A stretch of 64,000 bases of DNA from an uncultured Gammaproteobacteria bacterium (lineage in GTDB: Bacteria > Pseudomonadota > Gammaproteobacteria > UBA9214): the NCBI GenBank assembly GCA_963710815.1, contig CAVQCA010000022.1:9872-73871 (forward strand), given 5' to 3'. The translations under genes and the position numbers were made by a program. This document shows, piece by piece, positions 686 to 60,635 of this stretch (its first letter is position 1; each line of letters begins with the position of its first letter). The notes beneath the pieces were generated by a model. It was given only the letters and a program-made list of their open reading frames with translations. It had not been told where the DNA came from and did no database searches.

Positions 686-1612
686 ATGGACCTGATTCGC
701 GGCATACATAACCTGCGTCCCCGCCACCGGGGTTGCGCCGCGACCATCGGCAATTTCGATGGCGTGCATCTCGGCCACCAGGCCGTGCTCGGGCAGTTAT
801 CTGAACGTGCCGGCGTGCTGCGTCTGCCGGTGACGGTGATTACCTTCGAACCGCAGCCACGGGAGTATTTCACCCCGGAGCAAGTGCCGCCGCGCCTGAC
901 GCGGTTGAGGGAGAAGGTGGAGACGCTGCGCCGGTTTGGCGTGGACCGGGTGCTGTGCCTGCGCTTCAACGACCACCTGGCCGGTCTGCCGCCGGAGGAA
1001 TTTATTCGCATCATTCTGCTGGAAGGGCTGGACGTGAAGTACCTCGTCGTGGGAGATGATTTCCGCTTCGGCAGGGACCGGGCCGGGGATTTCGACCTGC
1101 TCGAACGCGTCGGGGCCAGCCGGGGATTTCCGGTCGTGACCATGCACAGCTTCAGTATCGGCGGTGTCCGCGTCAGCAGCACGCGTGTCCGCGAAGCCCT
1201 GGAGGCCGGCGATCTGGCGACGGCCGAATCCCTGCTGGGCCGGCCTTACCGCATGAGCGGCCGGGTGGCGCATGGCGACAAACGCGGCCGCACGATCGGC
1301 TTTCCGACGGCCAATATCTATCTGCATCGCACGGCCACGCCGGTGCAGGGCGTGTTCGTGGTGGAGTTGTTCGGGCTCGAGGGCGAACCCGTGCGGGGCG
1401 TGGCCAATGTCGGCAACCGCCCGACCGTCGATGGTACGCGCAGCCTGCTCGAGGTCCACCTGTTTGATTTCCACCGGGAGATCTACGGCTGCCACGTGCA
1501 GGTAGAGTTCCTGCACAAACTCAGGCCGGAACGACGCTTCGAGAGCTTCGACGCCCTGAAGCGCCAGATCGAGGAGGATGCCGCCCGTGCGCGTGCCTGG
1601 TTTGGTAAATGA
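686..1612 (+). CDS. ribF: Bifunctional riboflavin kinase/FAD synthetase
   Basis: TIGNFDGVHLGH, VVGDDFRFG, GRTIGFPTAN, LEVHLFDF motifs; ATG at 686. Confidence 0.97.
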   Translation: MDLIRGIHNLRPRHRGCAATIGNFDGVHLGHQAVLGQLSERAGVLRLPVTVITFEPQPREYFTPEQVPPRLTRLREKVETLRRFGVDRVLCLRFNDHLAGLPPEEFIRIILLEGLDVKYLVVGDDFRFGRDRAGDFDLLERVGASRGFPVVTMHSFSIGGVRVSSTRVREALEAGDLATAESLLGRPYRMSGRVAHGDKRGRTIGFPTANIYLHRTATPVQGVFVVELFGLEGEPVRGVANVGNRPTVDGTRSLLEVHLFDFHREIYGCHVQVEFLHKLRPERRFESFDALKRQIEEDAARARAWFGK

Positions 1613-1613
1613 A

Positions 1614-2161
1614 TCAACGCAAAGGCGCAAAGAACGCAAAGGATTTCTTTTACTGAAATCTTATAGTTTTTTTTGTTCTTTATTACTTCGCGGCGCCATC
1701 ATCCTTTTTTGATTGGACAATAGCTGAAGGATTGATACCAGGGAGGGTGTCGATGAGCAGGGAAGATATACTTTCACACGAGATTATCAGCGCGGCAATT
1801 GAAGTCCACCGGTGTACAGGCCCCGGTATGCTGGAATCGGTGTATGAACAGTGCCTTTGTGTGGAGCTCGGGAAAAGGGATATTGGTTTTGAGCGGCAGG
1901 TCCGAATACCGGTAAACTATAAAGGCTGTATGATCAATTGCGGCTACCGCATGGATCTGCTTGTCGATGACCTCGTCGTTCTTGAACTGAAGGCAGTCAG
2001 CACGCTGGAAAGAATTCACGAAGCACAATTGCTGACCTACCTGAAACTCTCCGGAAAGCGGCTTGGGATATTAATGAATTTCAATGTTGTGCTTTTAAGA
2101 AATGGAATCAAGCGAGTTGTTAACGGTTTATAACTTTGCGCTCTTTGCGTCTTTGCGGTGA
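1614..2161. mobile_element. Candidate GxxExxY cassette bounded by 28-bp inverted arms
   Basis: Left arm 1614-1641 TCAACGCAAAGGCGCAAAGAACGCAAAG; right arm 2134-2161 CTTTGCGCTCTTTGCGTCTTTGCGGTGA (25/28 as inverted repeat); AT-richer than flanks; separates ribF from ileS. Confidence 0.75.
1753..2133 (+). CDS. GxxExxY protein (PD-(D/E)xK nuclease superfamily), 126 aa
   Basis: EVHRCTGPGMLESVY (G-x-x-E-x-x-Y), RMDLLVDDLVVLELK, HEAQLLTYLKLSGKRLGILMNF; GGAGG upstream of ATG 1753. Confidence 0.93.
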   Translation: MSREDILSHEIISAAIEVHRCTGPGMLESVYEQCLCVELGKRDIGFERQVRIPVNYKGCMINCGYRMDLLVDDLVVLELKAVSTLERIHEAQLLTYLKLSGKRLGILMNFNVVLLRNGIKRVVNGL

Positions 2162-2170
2162 GAAAAACAC

Positions 2171-5017
2171 GTGGCTGATTACAAAAATACCCTGAATCTT
2201 CCCAGTACGGCTTTCCCCATGAAGGGCAACCTGCCACAGCGCGAACCGGAGCTGCTCAAGCGCTGGGAAGACATGAACCTCTATGGTCTGCTGCGCGAGG
2301 CCGGCCGGGGACGACCTCGCTTCGTGTTGCATGACGGGCCGCCCTACGCCAATGGCGATATCCATATCGGCCATGCCGTCAACAAGGTTCTGAAGGATAT
2401 TATCGTCAAGAGCAAGACGCTGGGCGGGTTTGATGCACCCTACATCCCCGGCTGGGACTGCCATGGTCTGCCGATCGAGCTCAATGTCGAGAAAAAGGTC
2501 GGCAAACCGGGTGTCAAGGTGAATGCTGCGGAGTTCAGGAAGGCCTGCCGAGAGTACGCCAGCCGGCAGGTCGAGGGGCAGCGCCGTGATTTCATCCGTC
2601 TGGGCGTGGTGGGTGACTGGCAGCGGCCCTATCTCACCATGGACTACCGCGTCGAGGCCGACATCATCCGGGCGCTGGGTAAAATCATCGAGAATCGCCA
2701 TCTGACCAGGGGTTACAAGCCGGTGCACTGGTGTACGGACTGCGGTTCCGCACTGGCGGAAGCGGAGGTGGAATACGAGGACAAGGATTCCTTTGCCATC
2801 GACGTTCGTTTCCCGGTACTGAACGAGCAGGCGCTGCTGGCGCGCTGTCACCATGTCGGGGGGCACTGCGGTGAAGGTCCGCTCTCCGTCGTCATCTGGA
2901 CCACCACCCCCTGGACGCTGCCGGCCAACCGGGCGGTTGCGCTCAACCCGGGGCTGGACTACGTCGTGGTGCAGTGCGATGCCGGCCATGGCCAGGAGCG
3001 GTTGCTGCTGGCCGATGCGCTGCTCAAGGACGCCATGGGGCGATACGATGCCGAGAAATACCAGGTGCTGGCCTATTGCAAGGGCAGCGATCTGGAAGGG
3101 CTGCATCTGGCGCATCCCTTCTACCAGCGCGAGGTCCCGATCATACTCGGCGAGCATGTCACCACGGAGGCGGGTACCGGTGCGGTCCATACCGCACCCG
3201 GACATGGCCAGGAAGACTATATCGTCGGCAGGCGCTACCGGCTGGCGGTGGACAACCCGGTCGGCGGAGATGGCCGGTTTCTCCCGGATACCGAACTGTT
3301 CGCCGGCCAGCATGTCTTCATGGCCAACAATTCCGTCATCGAGGTGTTGAAGGGCCGGGGCGCGCTGGTGCATGAGGAGAAGCTGCGTCACAGCTACCCG
3401 CACTGCTGGCGGCACAAGACGCCGATCATCTTTCGCGCCACGCCACAGTGGTTCATCGGCATGGAGCAGAACCACCTGCGCACCGCGGCGCTCTCCGAGA
3501 TCCGGCAGGTGGAATGGAAGCCGGAGTGGGGGCAGGCGCGCATCGCCGGGATGGTGGAGAACCGCCCGGACTGGTGCATCTCGCGCCAGCGCACCTGGGG
3601 TGTGCCGCTGCCTCTGTTCGTGCACAAGGAGAGCGGCGAGCTTCATCCGGACAGCGCCGGCCACATCGAGGCGGTGGCGCGACGCGTCGAGGAGCGGGGC
3701 ATCGAGGCCTGGCATGAACTGGATCCGGTCGATCTGCTGGGTAACGCTGCTGCCGCCTACACCAAGATCGCCGATACGCTCGATGTCTGGTTCGACTCCG
3801 GCGTAACGCACTTCGCCGTGCTGCGCCGGCGTGAGGAACTCGCCTTTCCCGCCGACCTCTATCTCGAGGGCTCCGACCAGCATCGCGGCTGGTTCCAGTC
3901 CTCGCTGCTCACCTCGGTCGCCATGTGCGGTCTGGCGCCCTACAAGGGGGTGCTGACCCACGGCTTCACCGTCGATGCCGCTGGCCAGAAGATGTCCAAG
4001 TCACGGGGCAATGTGGTGGCGCCGCAGAAGGTGGTGAATGCCCTCGGTGCCGATATTCTGCGCCTGTGGGTGGCCGCGACCGACTACCGCGGCGAGATGG
4101 CGGTCTCGGACGAGATCCTGAAGCGCACCGGTGACGCCTATCGCCGCCTGCGCAACACGGCCCGTTTTCTGCTCGCCAACCTGAACGGGTTTGACCCCGC
4201 CCGGGACCTGCTTGATCCGCAGACGATGCTGGCTCTGGATCGCTGGACCATCGAGCGTACCCGCCGGTTGCAGGAGCAGGTAATACAGGCCTATGACGAG
4301 TATGAGTTCCACCGCATCTATCAGCTGGTGCACAACTTCTGCGCGGTGGATATGGGAAGTTTCTATCTGGATATCATCAAGGACCGGCAATACACGACGC
4401 GGGCCGACAGCATCCCGAGGCGCTCGGCACAGACGGCGATGTACCACGTGGTCGAGGCGCTCGCACGCTGGTTTGCGCCGATCATGAGCTTCACCGCCGA
4501 GGAAATCTGGCGGCACATCCCGGGTGAGCGCACCGCATCGGTTCTTCTGAGTACCTGGTATGAATTGCCGCAGACCGATCATACGGAAACCGAGGTCCTG
4601 CGGCATATGGATGCCGATTACTGGGAGCGGGTCATCGCGGTGCGTGTTGCCGTCAGCAAGGAGCTGGAAAAACTGCGAGTGGGCGGCGCGATCGGCTCCT
4701 CGCTCGATGCCGAGGTGGACCTCTATGCCGATGCGGAGACCGTCGAGCTGTTGCGTGCGCTGGAAGATGAGCTGCGTTTCGTGCTGATCACCTCCTATGC
4801 CCGCGTCCATGACGCTGCCGATCGTCCGGGTGAGGCGGTCGAGGCGGACCTTCCGGGGTTTCAGCTGTGGTTGCGGGCGGCGCCGTCGGAACACGCCAAG
4901 TGCGTGCGCTGCTGGCATCATCGCGAGGACGTGGGCGGTGACCCCGAGCACCCGCAGCTCTGTGGACGCTGTGTGGAGAACGTCGCGGGAGCGGGTGAAC
5001 AGCGCCGTTACGCCTGA
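2171..5017 (+). CDS. ileS: Isoleucyl-tRNA synthetase
   Basis: [21 protein letters not shown]-terminal CVRCW..CGRC zinc finger. Confidence 0.99.
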
Positions 5018-5518: not shown

Positions 5519-5601
5519 TCACCGCAGAGTCACAGTGAACGCAGAGTGTTTTATTGTTTTCACTAAAGAATTTCTCTGCGTTCTTTGCGTCTTTGCGGTG
5601 A
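5519..5601. repeat. CGCAAAG hairpin element, 83 bp (28+27+28)
   Basis: Inverted arms TCACCGCAGAG.../...CTTTGCGGTGA around AT-rich spacer; begins 2 bp after lspA stop; outer-arm remnant to 5623. Confidence 0.9.
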
Positions 5602-5668
5602 AAAGATGTTCATCGATGCACACTAATTGTGGAAGTCTCGATAAGTCCGTAGCATCAAGGGGCGCGTT

Positions 5669-6153: not shown

Positions 6154-6362
6154 TCACCGCAGAGACGCAGAGGACACAGAGAGTCAATACGTCGTGAAAG
6201 ATAGATCAATGCAAAATATAATTGGATTATGTGCGGAAACTGCTTTCTCAACGCAAAGACGCAAAGACGCAAAGACGCAAAGTCGATTAATTGTTTTTGA
6301 AATAGATTTTCTTTGCGAACTTTGCGTCTTTGCGTTGAGTTGGTTCCTTTATGAACAGACAC
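6154..6362. repeat. Orphan CGCAGAG arm (6154-6181), full hairpin (6248-6338) and outer arm (6348-6362)
   Basis: TCACCGCAGAGACGCAGAGGACACAGAG; TCA(ACGCAAAG)x4 ... CTTTGCGTCTTTGCGTTGA; TTTATGAACAGACAC. Confidence 0.88.
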
Positions 6363-44867: not shown

Positions 44868-44950
44868 TCACCGCAAAGACGCAAAGGACGCAGAGAAATT
44901 CTTTAATGAAAACAATTGATCGCTTTGCGTTCTTTGCGCCTTTGCGGTGA
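44868..44950. repeat. CGCAAAG hairpin element, 83 bp, between gatC and gatA
   Basis: Arms around spacer AAATTCTTTAATGAAAACAATTGATCG; outer arm GTATCCATTCACAAA from 44845. Confidence 0.92.
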
Positions 44951-48009: not shown

Positions 48010-48139
48010 GTGTTCGTTCATAAACATCGTTTTCACCGCAAAGACGCAAAGTTCGCAAAGAAGGTCATTAACATAAACACATAATGGCTTTGCGTTCTTT
48101 GCGTCTTTGCGGTGAGTCAATTTCTTTATGGATAGCCAC
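48010..48139. repeat. CGCAAAG hairpin (48033-48115) inside an outer inverted repeat
   Basis: Outer GTGTTCGTTCATAAA ... TTTATGGATAGCCAC; inner 28+27+28. Confidence 0.9.
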
Positions 48140-49323: not shown

Positions 49324-49448
49324 GGGCGCCTGCAGAAATAATCTCACCGCAAAGACGCAAAGAGCGCAAAGTCTTTAATTGTTTTCGTTAAAGAATTTCT
49401 CTGCGTCCTTCGCGTCTTTGCGGTGAAAGCGGTGTTATGGATGAATAC
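49324..49448. mobile_element. TA-flanked composite element containing a CGCAAAG hairpin (49344-49426), inserted in the moeB 3' end
   Basis: Reverse-orientation homologue of the 60440 element; TA at 49322-23 and 49449-50. Confidence 0.75.
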
Positions 49449-50240: not shown

Positions 50241-50325
50241 TCACCGCAGAGACGCAAAGAGCGCAGAGAATCCCCTGATAAAAAAGCAATTAATTACCTC
50301 TGCGTGCTTTGCGTCTCTGCGGTGA
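50241..50325. repeat. CGCAGAG hairpin element, 85 bp, with outer arms (about 50218 and 50335-50349)
   Basis: TCACCGCAGAGACGCAAAGAGCGCAGAG / CTCTGCGTGCTTTGCGTCTCTGCGGTGA. Confidence 0.9.
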
Positions 50326-50833: not shown

Positions 50834-51069
50834 AATGGCCACGGAAGCACACGGAAGCACACGGAAAGTAAAAAAGTGAAAGGTGAAAAAGTGAAAAAAA
50901 CCTGCAGTCCACTGATGCTACAGAGAGTTATACCCTGCAGGAGATATCGCGTGCAGTATTTCGATGCACTGCATGGGCAATGAACTCTCGACATCAATGC
51001 ACCAGCCAGTGCCTGAAGGTTTTTCACTTCTTACTTCTACTTATTTTTCCGTGTGCTTCCGTGGCCATT
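50834..51069. repeat. CACGGAA inverted arms enclosing nested (A)GTGAAA inverted arms and a ~115-bp core
   Basis: Perfect 23-bp IR AATGGCCACGGAAGCACACGGAA; inner AGTGAAAGGTGAAAAAGTGAAA vs TTTTCACTTCTTACTTCTACT. Confidence 0.8.
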
Positions 51070-59865: not shown

Positions 59866-60440
59866 CGGCGATCCGGCTCGTCGCCGGGCTGGGAAACCCC
59901 GGGACAAAGTACCAACAGACCCGGCATAACGCCGGGTTCTGGTTCGTGGACGAGGTCGCGCGCCGCTATGCGGTCCGGTTTCGCACCGAATCCCGCTTTG
60001 CGAGCGAGGTGGCCAGCTGCCAGATCGACGGACAGGAATGCCGCCTGCAGAAACCGCAGGATTTCATGAACCGCAGCGGTCGGCCGGTGGCTGCGCTCGC
60101 CGCGTTTTACCGCATTCCGCGTCCCGCCATTCTCGTGGTGCACGATGATCTCGACCTGCCTCCCGGTACGGTGCGACTCAAGCAGGACGGTGGTCACGGC
60201 GGACACAATGGCCTGCGTGACCTGATTCCCAGTCTCGGCGGCAATGATTTCCTGCGGCTGCGTATCGGCATCGGGCATCCCGGTCATCGTGACGACGTGA
60301 TCGGCTACGTGCTCAGACCCGCCACGCGGGAAGAGCAGGCGGCCATCGAGGCGGCCATCGAGGCGGCGCTCGGGGTGTTGCCCGCTGTCATTACCGGCAA
60401 CCTGGAAGCCGCCATGAAGGTGCTGCATACCGCTAGATAG
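59862..60440 (+). CDS. pth: Peptidyl-tRNA hydrolase
   Basis: [37 protein letters not shown]. Confidence 0.97.
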
Positions 60441-60569
60441 TGTCTGTCCATAAACACCGTTTTCACCGCAAAGACGCAAAGGACGCAGAGAAATTCTTTA
60501 ACGAAAACAATTAAACACTTTGCGCTCTTTGCGGCTTTGCGGTGAGTTTATTTCTTTATGGATGGCCAC
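60440..60569. mobile_element. Composite MITE: outer TIR plus CGCAAAG hairpin (60463-60545)
   Basis: GTGTCTGTCCATAAA / TTTATGGATGGCCAC (12/15); flanked by TA (extendable to TAGATA) on both sides. Confidence 0.8.
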
Positions 60570-60572
60570 TAG

Positions 60573-60635
60573 ATAAGGTGCGCCGTGCGCACCGTGAATG
60601 TTTAAAAACCTCCTGGTGCGCATGGCGCACCCTAC
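60573..60635. repeat. GTAG-family REP doublet, second copy
   Basis: GGTGCGCCGTGCGCACC ... GGTGCGCATGGCGCACCCTAC. Confidence 0.82.

What the first reader, a model, noticed from the sequence alone, without database searches (positions are those of the whole stretch)
1614..2161. GxxExxY nuclease gene bracketed by the same inverted arms that form dispersed hairpins: candidate autonomous member of a REPIN-like system
Seen: a 126-aa GxxExxY gene lies between two 28-bp inverted arms (25/28). The left arm starts 1 bp after the ribF stop, and the right arm starts on the base right after the gene's own TAA and ends 9 bp before ileS. Each arm is TCA(C/A) plus three CGCAAAG heptamers. The cassette is AT-richer than its neighbours. 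The bases just inside the left arm (GATTTCTTTTACTGAAATC) resemble the spacer of the gene-less hairpins (AAATTCTTTAATGAAAAC). Established: ribF-ileS are normally adjacent; GxxExxY proteins are PD-(D/E)xK-fold proteins with no established function; RAYT transposases sit between REPs and are linked to REPIN spread. Inference: this is an analogous selfish or domesticated system in which a PD-(D/E)xK nuclease binds or cuts the triple-heptamer arms and spreads both itself and empty hairpins.
Basis: partly seen in the sequence, partly recalled or inferred. Interest (0 to 1): 0.92.

Follow-up and report, generated by a model that had tools for sequence, protein, structure and literature searches.

The report
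Small nuclease gene framed by hairpin arms
A small, widespread nuclease-like gene of unknown function sits between two mirror-image arrays of a 7-base motif that also forms hundreds of gene-less hairpins in the same genome, and this pairing recurs from proteobacteria to archaea, so it looks like a second, unrelated version of the known REPIN-RAYT repeat-and-nuclease partnership.

Summary
It also generalises. Of 93 intact GxxExxY genes, 62 have clustered C[AG]CN[AG]A[AG] heptamers on both sides in arm orientation; the opposite-orientation control gives 4 of 93. The genes come from relatives and from public contigs of many phyla, archaea included.

The window's genome has two paralogues. Each is framed by its own heptamer family (CGCAAAG; CACGGAA), and each family is also dispersed as 350-400 arms. 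Arm class follows the protein tree.

The ribF-ileS copy is not a recent insertion. It occupies this site in four genera, is under purifying selection (dN/dS 0.12), and was deleted repeatedly, after which its arm decays. CGCARAG arm counts are higher where a cognate gene survives (median 123 against 6.5). The CACGGAA family has clear exceptions.

Arms behave as inverted arrays of a recognition motif, not as a selected RNA stem. Four-helix-bundle "23S IVS" genes share the architecture with other heptamers.

Best reading: a RAYT-like resident nuclease tied to its hairpins (about 0.5). No biochemistry exists, and I found no paper linking the two.

The parts
686..1612 (+). ribF (FAD synthetase/riboflavin kinase) 3' neighbour-defining gene; stop TGA 1610-1612
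   Evidence: ORF listing and sequence; orthologous ribF found next to the cassette in relatives
1614..1641 (.). left arm: TCAA + three CGCAAAG heptamers (start-to-start spacing 8 and 9 nt)
   Evidence: Inverted repeat I1, 25/28 complementary. 8 dispersed arms in the genome are identical to its 25-nt core and 44 differ at one base.
1642..1752 (+). AT-rich leader: decayed hairpin loop and decayed second arm, then Shine-Dalgarno AGGGAGGG (about 1740-1747)
   Evidence: Comparison with G001, where the same stretch is left arm + loop + partial right arm + outer arm. The CCAGGGAGGG motif is shared with the second paralogue and with PF05635 cassettes. No sigma-70-like promoter was found.
1753..2133 (+). 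GxxExxY / PDDEXK_3 gene, 126 aa. Motif residues G23, G25, E28, D68, K80 and Q92 are invariant and E78 is nearly invariant
   Evidence: Pfam and NCBIfam matches; conserved columns in 90 homologues; AlphaFold model pLDDT 94.8; dN/dS 0.12 against G001
2134..2161 (.). right arm: three CTTTGCG units + GTGA, abutting the stop codon
   Evidence: The arm is kept in all orthologous cassettes inspected in four genera and is decayed to 0-2 heptamers where the gene was deleted.
2171..5017 (+). ileS, downstream neighbour
   Evidence: ORF listing; orthologues
5520..5602 (.). gene-less hairpin of the same arm family (degenerate left arm)
   Evidence: single-stranded DNA fold z = -5.2
6157..6335 (.). gene-less element of the same family with an enlarged loop and an internally expanded array of 4 heptamers
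   Evidence: G000:C22:16028-16206
44868..44949 (.). gene-less hairpin, 27-nt loop
   Evidence: single-stranded DNA fold -25.8 kcal/mol, z = -6.7
48033..48115 (.). gene-less hairpin
   Evidence: z = -10.6
49344..49425 (.). gene-less hairpin, absent at the orthologous site of congener G001
50241..50323 (.). gene-less hairpin, present only in this genome among four congeners compared
60463..60545 (.). gene-less hairpin
   Evidence: z = -7.5
50838..51065 (.). element of the second (CACGGAA) arm family, the family that frames the genome's other GxxExxY gene on contig C145
   Evidence: G000:C22:60709-60936; second gene and its arms

Best explanation
The cassette is the resident, protein-coding partner of a REPIN-like repeat population. 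The partnership works like REP/RAYT, but the protein is unrelated.

Proposed mechanism. The 126-aa PD-(D/E)XK protein recognises the C[AG]CN[AG]AG heptamers. These stand three in a row, 8-9 nt apart, behind a TTnACC terminus, in mirror orientation on both sides of its gene. The same arrangement occurs in hundreds of short hairpins. By nicking or cutting at these arrays, in duplex DNA or in hairpins extruded from single strands, it triggers repair- or replication-coupled copying and homogenisation of the hairpins. The gene itself stays put and is inherited vertically. When the gene is lost, its own arms and then the dispersed population decay.

Shown here: the anatomy, its generality, the co-variation of arm class with protein, the long residence at fixed sites, purifying selection, decay after loss, and hairpin gain and loss between congeners.

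Inferred, not shown: that the protein binds the heptamers, that it cuts, and that this causes hairpin copying.
For: 1. Anatomy. Arms are at 1614-1641 and 2134-2161. The genome has 350 such arms and 0 in the reversed control, forming 140 convergent pairs, 92 of them with 24-30-nt loops.

2. Second paralogue. G000:C145:54253-54591 is framed by a different triple heptamer, CACGGAA. That family has 404 arms (control 5) and 157 pairs.

3. Generality.
- 24 of 28 scorable loci from relatives have a flank inverted repeat above all 30 shuffles.
- 54 of 79 loci from public contigs of many phyla score 14 or more, against 7 of 79 mismatched flank pairs.
- 62 of 93 intact genes have at least 2 clustered heptamers on both sides, and 45 have at least 3. 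The opposite orientation gives 4 of 93.
- The modal arm has 3 heptamers (42 of 59 left arms, 43 of 59 right arms). Spacing is 8-9 nt in 194 of 232 cases, and the outer terminus is TTnACC.

4. Specificity.
- Arm class needs 16 changes on the protein tree, against 28.7 +/- 2.1 in 500 shuffles (minimum 22).
- The five CACGGAA-armed proteins form one clade (SH-aLRT 97).
- Within single genomes (G000, G029), different paralogues carry different arms.

5. Recognition motif rather than stem.
- Arm-to-arm identity is 99% at the fixed heptamer positions and 89% at the variable ones. It is only 54% (chance 35%) at the spacers.
- Arm mismatches show no G:U bias on the sense strand (51 against 50).

6. 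Residence and selection.
- The gene lies between ribF and ileS in G000, G001, G004, G005, G009, G012, G015, G019 and G024, which span four genera.
- The second gene lies between gmd and fcl in G000, G027, G029, G031 and G032.
- dN/dS is 0.12. Between genera pS is 0.72-0.87 (saturated) and pN 0.19-0.30, yet the arms persist.

7. Decay after loss.
- Most gene-less ribF-ileS sites inspected keep the last ~30 nt of the gene, and their right arm is reduced to 0-2 heptamers.
- CGCARAG double-heptamer counts have median 123 in 13 genomes with an intact CGC-armed gene, against 6.5 in 16 without (one-sided Mann-Whitney p = 1.2e-4).
- For CACGGAA, the median is 103 in 5 carriers against 13.5 in 8 genomes with a verified gene-less site (p = 0.024).

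8. Hairpins turn over. Two window hairpins are missing at orthologous sites of congeners. In G000, 45 of 104 CACGGAA hairpins have a nearest neighbour at least 95% identical, and 10 have an identical twin.

9. Five distant carrier genomes, among them Acidobacteriota, Planctomycetota, Geobacteraceae and a Methanosarcinales archaeon, hold 49-120 triple arrays each (controls 0-1).

10. The catalytic-type residues E28, D68 and K80 are invariant and E78 is nearly invariant in 90 homologues.
Against: 1. The CACGGAA family is abundant where no cognate gene was found: G017 365, G033 337, G020 194 and G028 141 double heptamers. G020 (20 contigs, 95% complete) has near-identical copies on different contigs. 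G054, a complete one-contig genome without any PF13366 match, has 114 CGCARAG hits with well-kept four-heptamer arms.

2. The presence/absence contrasts were assembled after the fact and the genomes are kin. Six genomes with assembly gaps and two with degenerate genes were left out of the CGC test. Co-decay of two old relics in the same lineages would give the same correlation.

3. A hydrolytic PD-(D/E)XK nuclease has no known strand-transfer chemistry, so copying must be delegated to host repair. No target-site duplication could be read, because the intergenic DNA is too diverged.

4. Fold matches are weak and generic: Cas4 SSO0001 at E 1e-3 and TM 0.47, then lambda exonuclease.

5. Unrelated PF05635 genes use the same kind of cassette. 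The cassette frame could therefore be moved by something other than its cargo.
Confidence: 0.5

Rival explanations
1. Passenger or homing gene. The hairpins are an independent repeat family moved by some other, unidentified activity. GxxExxY is a selfish nuclease gene that lodges in hairpin loops. It may act as a homing-type endonuclease whose palindromic target is the empty hairpin, and it travels with the hairpin.
For: - Hairpins thrive without the gene in G020, G017, G033 and G054.
- Hairpin loops accept other insertions. CACGGAA elements and other repeats are nested in CGCAAAG loops. Two pairs of small genes (which I recognise from recall as DUF4160/DUF2442-like) sit inside the CACGGAA arms of G022.
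- The same gmd-fcl site holds a GxxExxY cassette in G000 and a PF05635 cassette in G001.
- A weak fold match to the catalytic domain of homing endonuclease I-Bth0305I.
Against: - There is only one gene copy per arm family among roughly 150-200 hairpins in G000. Efficient homing should fill many loops.
- The gene has stayed at one site through synonymous saturation with dN/dS about 0.1, which is unlike a purely selfish homing gene.
- Locus arms decay after gene loss, and CGCARAG abundance follows the gene.
Confidence: 0.2
2. RNA-level cassette. The arms pair in the transcript and are cut by RNase III, as in 23S rRNA intervening sequences. This lets a promoter-less small gene ride inside operons or rRNA without harm. 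The protein's own function has nothing to do with the arms.
For: - PF05635 cassettes have the same layout, and one lies inside 23S rRNA (L145: LSU_rRNA_bacteria, 1535 bits).
- Both G000 cassettes sit between co-directional operon genes, and no promoter-like site was found.
- The Coxiella IVS is described as a selfish element in helix 45 carrying an S23p ORF (PMC4990558, abstract seen in the listing).
- A metatranscriptome contig covers 1732-2159 (weak, because DNA carry-over is possible).
Against: - Arm mismatches show no G:U over A:C bias (51 against 50).
- Spacer positions are barely complementary, while the heptamer identities are kept.
- An RNA stem does not explain why arm motif class follows the protein clade, or why each protein family has its own heptamers.
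- No GxxExxY locus examined lies in rRNA.
Confidence: 0.15
3. Host-side function. The heptamer arrays are chromosomal binding or structural sites, for example for a nucleoid or global regulator as proposed for Geobacter. GxxExxY is a domesticated protein that binds or trims them for the host, for example by removing hairpins or cruciforms at replication. It does not propagate them.
For: - Paired sites of three tandem TCTCCGTS[Y] repeats (the complement of CACGGAGA) were catalogued in Geobacter metallireducens as putative global-regulator sites (PMC2700814, passages read).
- Long vertical retention and purifying selection.
- Arms are well kept in gene-less G054.
Against: - The gene is lost repeatedly without replacement.
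- Cross-phylum identity (50-64%) is as high as between genera of one family. This points to horizontal spread of the cassette rather than a core host function.
- Hairpins differ between congeners.
Confidence: 0.1

Closest known systems
REPIN-RAYT systems (REP doublets and their REP-associated tyrosine transposase)
   Same: - A single-copy, non-jumping, vertically inherited gene flanked by inverted copies of the repeat.
- The repeat is dispersed in hundreds of gene-less hairpin-forming copies.
- One repeat family goes with each paralogue.
- Repeat conservation is linked to the gene.

Sources: abstracts of PMC3116915 and PMC5581495 and of bioRxiv 10.1101/2021.07.10.451892, seen.
   Different: - The protein is a PD-(D/E)XK fold, not an HUH/Y1 transposase.
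- The Y1_Tnp genes of this genome are not near heptamer arms.
- The arm is not itself a palindrome with a GTAG/CGTC tag. It is three direct heptamers, so a hairpin forms only between the two arms.
- The dependence on the gene is less clean.
23S rRNA intervening sequences carrying an S23p / four-helix-bundle ORF (PF05635)
   Same: - A small ORF with a strong Shine-Dalgarno site between inverted arms of tandem 7-8-nt units.
- Placement inside transcription units.
- 5 of 6 PF05635 loci in relatives show this layout, and one is a true IVS.
- One occupies the same gmd-fcl site as the second GxxExxY gene.
   Different: - The protein is unrelated.
- The heptamers differ (GAAGTGA, GTCAGTG/TTAGCTG, GGTATCA).
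- The cassette studied here is not in rRNA, and PF05635 was not found in this genome (94.9% complete).
Paired triple-repeat 'global regulator binding sites' of Geobacter metallireducens (Aklujkar et al. 2009, PMC2700814)
   Same: 21 pairs of three tandem TCTCCGTS[Y] repeats on opposite strands at variable distance. This is the complement of the CACGGAG arms seen here around GxxExxY genes.
   Different: They were interpreted as IHF/HU-type regulator sites, and no link to a gene between the sites is made in the passages I read. Their supplementary figures and tables, which list neighbouring genes, were not available to me.
MITE-like palindromic repeats without a known transposase (e.g. Neisseria Correia/NEMIS elements; named from recall, no call)
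   Same: Roughly 80-150-bp intergenic inverted-repeat elements in hundreds of copies, polymorphic between relatives. In G000, 95 of 350 arms sit inside a larger ~132-nt element with outer inverted ends AGTGTCCGTCCATAAA.
   Different: Here a candidate cognate protein gene carries the same arms, and the arms are iterated heptamers.
Free-standing or intron-borne homing endonuclease genes of PD-(D/E)XK type
   Same: A small nuclease gene embedded in a phenotypically neutral vehicle, with a palindromic flanking sequence that is split by the gene.
   Different: There is no intron or intein, only one copy per family, and long vertical residence. The fold match is weak.

Membership tests
PF13366 PDDEXK_3 / TIGR04256 GxxExxY | Full-length match to the family profile above the curated cut-off | tested here: met
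   PF13366: 146.6 bits (cut-off 22), residues 7-122. TIGR04256: 147.8 bits (cut-off 35).
PF13366 PDDEXK_3 / TIGR04256 GxxExxY | GxxExxY motif and D...E-x-K catalytic-type residues | tested here: met
   G25-E28-Y31, D68 and E78-L-K80 are present. G23, G25, E28, D68, K80 and Q92 are invariant and E78 is nearly invariant in 90 homologues.
PD-(D/E)XK nuclease fold | alpha-beta-beta-beta-alpha-beta core resembling solved members | tested here: met
   The model has pLDDT 94.8, with helices at 3-22 and 28-41, strands at 46-80, a helix at 87-100 and a strand at 104-109. The best PDB neighbours are Cas4 SSO0001, lambda exonuclease, LHK-Exo and tRNA-splicing endonucleases, but all are weak (E >= 1e-3, TM about 0.5).
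REPIN-RAYT system | Associated protein is an IS200-like HUH/Y1 transposase | tested here: not met
   The protein is PDDEXK_3. The 5 Y1_Tnp matches in the genome are not near heptamer arms.
REPIN-RAYT system | Repeat unit is a short imperfect palindrome (REP), two of which in inverted orientation make a REPIN | tested here: not met
   Each arm is three direct heptamers and is not self-complementary. Pairing occurs only between the two arms.
REPIN-RAYT system | Single-copy, vertically inherited gene flanked by its own repeat | tested here: met
   There is one gene per arm family. The same site is occupied in four genera. dN/dS is 0.12.
REPIN-RAYT system | Repeat population depends on the gene | tested here: inconclusive
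   CGCARAG family: median 123 against 6.5. CACGGAA family: exceptions G017, G033 and G020. The genomes are kin, not independent samples.
23S rRNA intervening sequence | Located inside the 23S rRNA gene and excised from the rRNA | tested here: not met
   The cassette lies between ribF and ileS. No GxxExxY locus shares 23S flanks. Excision is not testable here.
MITE / insertion sequence | Terminal inverted repeats with a target-site duplication and a related transposase-bearing parent | tested here: inconclusive
   Inverted arms are present. A target duplication could not be read at polymorphic sites. No recognised transposase lies between arms; the long arm pairs enclose ordinary genes.
Homing endonuclease gene | Cleaves the gene-less allele and is copied into it | not testable with these tools
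   Only a weak fold match to I-Bth0305I. One copy per family argues against efficient homing.
Anti-phage defence or phage protein families | Match to a PADLOC or PHROG family | tested here: not met
   PADLOC gives only Cas4 at E 0.0046 and PDC-M36A at E 0.0055 for one paralogue. PHROGs gives nothing.

The most novel reading that the evidence does not exclude
GxxExxY proteins, and in parallel the four-helix-bundle '23S IVS' proteins, define a pan-prokaryotic class of iteron-armed palindromic cassettes. Each small protein recognises its own heptamer arrays and sustains a population of hundreds of hairpins. This would be a second, independent origin of REPIN-like intragenomic replicators, based on a PD-(D/E)XK nuclease instead of an HUH transposase. 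The system is shared by bacteria and archaea through horizontal transfer, and it is the source of protein-coding rRNA intervening sequences.
Probability: 0.3. Interest if true: 0.9.

Novelty: new variant of a known kind. Interest (0 to 1): 0.8.

Why it matters
PF13366/TIGR04256 is a large family listed with unknown function (PMC3424549, passage read). It is found from Gammaproteobacteria to Methanosarcinales.

Linking it to a defined DNA motif, three C[AG]CN[AG]AG heptamers in mirror arrays, turns it into a directly testable nuclease-substrate pair.

It also offers an explanation for dispersed triple-repeat hairpins that a genome paper catalogued as regulator sites (PMC2700814).

If the dependence holds, REPIN-like partnerships between a resident nuclease and a hairpin population have arisen more than once. 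In that case, gene-carrying rRNA intervening sequences belong to the same class of element.

A practical consequence: these cassettes break short-read assemblies. In G003, G012 and G019 the contigs end at the cassette. Gene absence in metagenome-assembled genomes is therefore unreliable.

Tried and rejected
- **RAYT link.** The genome has five Y1_Tnp matches, but none lies within 3 kb of a heptamer arm. Two have their own, different inverted flanks.
- **Other cargo in G000.** Arm pairs 280-2854 nt apart enclose ordinary host genes lying between separate hairpins, not cassettes.
- **Known RNA family.** Rfam gave only sub-threshold microRNA-precursor look-alikes on two hairpins.
- **Solved relatives by sequence.** None.
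- **Dimer prediction.** The job returned no verdict (score 0.00, mark 0.42) and is not used either way.
- **Sequencing runs.**
  - Contigs of three RNA libraries and one DNA run were laid on the region. An RNA-library contig covers 1732-2159, and many contigs join the two arms across a short loop, which are other hairpin copies.
  - Contigs cannot show transcript ends, and DNA carry-over is possible, so this is only a weak hint.
- **Neighbour orientation.** The upstream neighbour is co-directional in 64 of 85 cases and the downstream one in 58 of 86. This is close to what adjacent bacterial genes show anyway, so it is not used.
- **Target-site duplication.** It could not be read, because the intergenic DNA of congeners is too diverged.
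- **First naive reading.** 'Many gene-less genomes have many arms' was partly an artefact. In G003, G012 and G019 the cassette falls at contig ends.
- **Literature.**
  - 'GxxExxY' gave three papers, two of them listed. The two I opened are not about function.
  - 'PDDEXK_3' gave one paper.
  - Six 15-mer arm strings gave none.
Full report
**The observation**

- ribF ends at 1610-1612.
- A 28-nt arm (TCAA plus three CGCAAAG units) runs 1614-1641.
- A 126-aa ORF runs 1753-2133. The reverse-complement arm runs 2134-2161, directly after its TAA. ileS starts at 2171.
- The ORF is a full-length member of PF13366 PDDEXK_3 and TIGR04256 GxxExxY.
- The inner 492 nt are 45% G+C, in a genome of 59.4%.
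- Chance is excluded. The triple-heptamer arm occurs 350 times in the 4.04-Mb assembly and never in the reversed sequence.

**The repeat population in this genome**

The 350 arms form 140 convergent pairs. Of these, 92 have loops of 24-30 nt. About 42 have loops of 37-200 nt, many holding other nested repeats. Only one pair encloses a gene of its own, the finding.
- As single-stranded DNA the short elements fold into three 7-10-bp blocks separated by mismatches at the spacers, with z = -5 to -10.
- They avoid coding sequence. 25 of 134 lie wholly inside long open frames, although such frames cover 78% of the genome.
- 95 of the 350 arms sit inside a larger ~132-nt palindromic element with its own outer ends.

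A second GxxExxY gene lies on another contig (G000:C145:54253-54591), between gmd and fcl. It is framed by a different triple heptamer, CACGGAA. That family is also dispersed, with 404 arms (control 5) and 157 pairs. So there are two paralogues, two arm families and two hairpin populations in one genome.

**Generality**

Relatives:
- PF13366 matched in 22 of 61 related genomes.
- In 24 of 28 scorable loci, the best inverted repeat between the flanks exceeded all 30 shuffles.
- The arms were arrays of CGCAAAG/CGCAGAG, CACGGAA, CACGGAG or CACAGAG, and in one distant member AATCCTG.

Public contigs:
- A scan of one genome per species returned 80 loci, 50-64% identical to the query. They come from Acidobacteriota, Planctomycetota, Verrucomicrobiota, Chloroflexota, Bacteroidota, Cyanobacteria, several proteobacterial classes and three archaeal lineages.
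- 54 of 79 scorable loci had a flank inverted repeat of score 14 or more, against 7 of 79 for mismatched flank pairs.

Pooled set:
- The 110 loci were pooled. I kept the 93 with an intact ORF of 105-150 aa and dropped 17 partial or broken ones.
- 62 have at least two clustered C[AG]CN[AG]A[AG] heptamers on both sides in arm orientation, and 45 have at least three. The opposite orientation gives 4 of 93.
- The typical arm has three heptamers spaced 8-9 nt apart behind an outer TTnACC. The right arm begins a median of 14 nt after the stop codon, and the left arm ends a median of 36 nt before the start.

Five distant carrier genomes hold 49-120 triple arrays each, with controls of 0-1.

**What the arms are**

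Three results point to mirror-image arrays of a recognition motif rather than a selected stem.
- Between the two arms of a cassette, the fixed heptamer positions agree in 99% of cases and the family-defining variable positions in 89%. The spacers agree in only 54%, against 35% by chance.
- Arm mismatches show no excess of G:U-compatible changes on the sense strand (51 against 50).
- Arm class follows the protein tree. It needs 16 changes on 76 labelled rows (17 unlabelled rows dropped), against 28.7 +/- 2.1 in 500 shuffles (minimum 22). All five CACGGAA-armed proteins form one well-supported clade.

Kin share labels, so the shuffle test overstates the signal. The within-genome contrasts in G000 and G029 do not suffer from that.

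**History of this copy**

The gene is between ribF and ileS in G000, G001 (twice, one copy a pseudogene), G004, G005, G009 (twice), G015 and G024. Truncated by contig ends, it is also there in G012 and G019. These genomes span four genera.

All these cassettes keep the arms. In G005 the left arm has expanded to about eleven units.

Synonymous sites are saturated between genera (pS 0.72-0.87) while pN is 0.19-0.30. Between G000 and G001, dN/dS is 0.12. The arms have therefore outlived neutral sequence.

Most gene-less sites carry a remnant rather than being empty.
- G002, G010, G020, G022 and most of the 20 further genomes keep the last ~30 nt of the gene.
- Their right arm is reduced to 0-2 heptamers.

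The second gene has a parallel history at gmd-fcl:
- It is present in G000, G027, G029, G031 and G032.
- It is a pseudogene with intact arms in G022.
- The arms remain without the gene in G030 and G007.
- Truly arm-less sites occur in G009, G024 and G014; G006 was judged gene-less from alignment coordinates only.
- In G001 a PF05635 cassette occupies the site.

**Does the hairpin population follow the gene?**

The raw table looked negative, because many genomes without a PF13366 hit have many arms. Part of this is assembly failure at the cassette, as in G003, G012 and G019.

After checking sites, the numbers are as follows.
- CGCARAG double-heptamer counts have median 123 in 13 genomes with an intact CGC-armed gene and 6.5 in 16 without (one-sided Mann-Whitney p = 1.2e-4).
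- G002, whose loss is recent, still has 144.
- Six genomes with gaps and two with degenerate genes were left out.
- For CACGGAA, five carriers have median 103 and eight verified non-carriers 13.5 (p = 0.024).

Large exceptions remain. G017 has 365, G033 has 337, and G020 has 194 with near-identical copies on different contigs. The complete genome G054 has 114 CGCARAG hits and well-kept four-heptamer arms around variable AT-rich loops.

The genomes are kin and the grouping was made after the fact. I read this as suggestive, not decisive.

Hairpins do turn over. Two of the window's hairpins are missing at orthologous sites of congeners.

**The protein**

The model is confident (pLDDT 94.8) and shows a minimal PD-(D/E)XK core. 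PDB neighbours are weak: Cas4 SSO0001 at E 1e-3, lambda exonuclease, LHK-Exo, tRNA-splicing endonucleases, and a homing endonuclease catalytic domain. There is no defence-system or phage family match. The oligomer prediction gave no verdict.

**A wider class**

Five of the six PF05635 (four-helix-bundle, '23S IVS protein') loci in relatives have the same layout with other repeat units (GAAGTGA and others). They share the CCAGGGAGGG-type ribosome-binding region. One lies inside 23S rRNA.

**Comparison with what is known**

The system works like REPIN-RAYT but fails the membership tests for the protein and for the repeat unit.

It resembles ORF-bearing rRNA intervening sequences in layout.

Its CACGGAG arms were catalogued in Geobacter metallireducens as paired triple repeats, thought there to bind a global regulator (PMC2700814, passages read).

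I found no paper that links GxxExxY proteins to these repeats. Steczkiewicz et al. list the family as of unknown function.

**Verdict**

The gene is a resident, not a jumping, partner, and its causal role in hairpin spread remains an inference with real counter-examples.

Noticed in passing
G001 locus L144 (G001:C6, between gmd and fcl) versus G000:C145:54163-54652: The same intergenic site holds a PF05635 four-helix-bundle cassette with GAAGTGA arms in one congener. In the window's genome it holds a GxxExxY cassette with CACGGAA arms.
   Followed up: partly
L145 (G009:C62:666-989): A PF05635 gene with inverted GGTATCA/GTTGTCA-type arms lies inside the 23S rRNA gene (LSU_rRNA_bacteria, 1535 bits). 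It is a protein-coding intervening sequence.
   Followed up: yes
G000:C87:3007-3183; L011 (both arms); L023 (left arm): A ~45-nt insert (beginning CGACTGCAGGGATGCAGGAG...) splits the first heptamer of an arm at the same position in different genomes. In L011 it is present in both arms, giving a 68-nt inverted repeat. It looks like a still smaller element that targets the heptamer.
   Followed up: no
G000 genome-wide; e.g. window 60433-60575: 95 of the 350 CGCAAAG arms are nested in a larger ~132-nt palindromic element with outer ends AGTGTCCGTCCATAAA. The gene cassette lacks these outer ends.
   Followed up: partly
L187 (G022:C4:225380-227120): Inside the CACGGAA arms at gmd-fcl, the 5' part of the GxxExxY gene is replaced by two pairs of small genes. 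I recognise these as DUF4160/DUF2442-like from recall only; they were not profiled. An extra internal arm lies between the pairs.
   Followed up: no
L017 (G005) left arm; window about 6250-6282; G037:C55:17055-17187: Heptamer arrays expand by tandem amplification: about 11 units of ACGCAGAG, 4 units of CGCAAAGA, and 15 units of CACGGAAGT respectively.
   Followed up: no
ribF-ileS intergenic remnants, loci L193-L212 and L178-L181: The remnant of the gene's last ~30 nt (...TTATTGGGTTATAA) is conserved across many species of one genus, long after the gene was deleted. It ends in a TATAA-like box about 35-45 nt before ileS, so it may have been kept as a promoter element.
   Followed up: no
G000:C11:7875-8204 and G000:C157:9962-10285: Two RAYT-like Y1_Tnp genes each carry their own inverted flank (for example GGTGTCAGAGCACATTTTT), unrelated to the heptamer arms. 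The genome may therefore host a classical REP/RAYT system as well.
   Followed up: partly
G054:C1, loci L121-L140: A complete genome without any PF13366 match has four-heptamer CGCARAG arms around loops of 30-230 nt that differ completely from copy to copy.
   Followed up: partly
G003:C23 end and G003:C13 start; G012:C78 and C5 ends; G019:C66 and C113 ends: Contigs of short-read assemblies end exactly at the cassette, so the gene is missing or truncated in these assemblies although it is present in the organism.
   Followed up: yes
G065 (genome of L087), listing: In this Acidobacteriota genome most closely spaced array pairs are in the opposite order, with the pyrimidine arm first and the outer ACC ends facing a ~27-nt gap. 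This differs from the hairpins of the window's genome.
   Followed up: no
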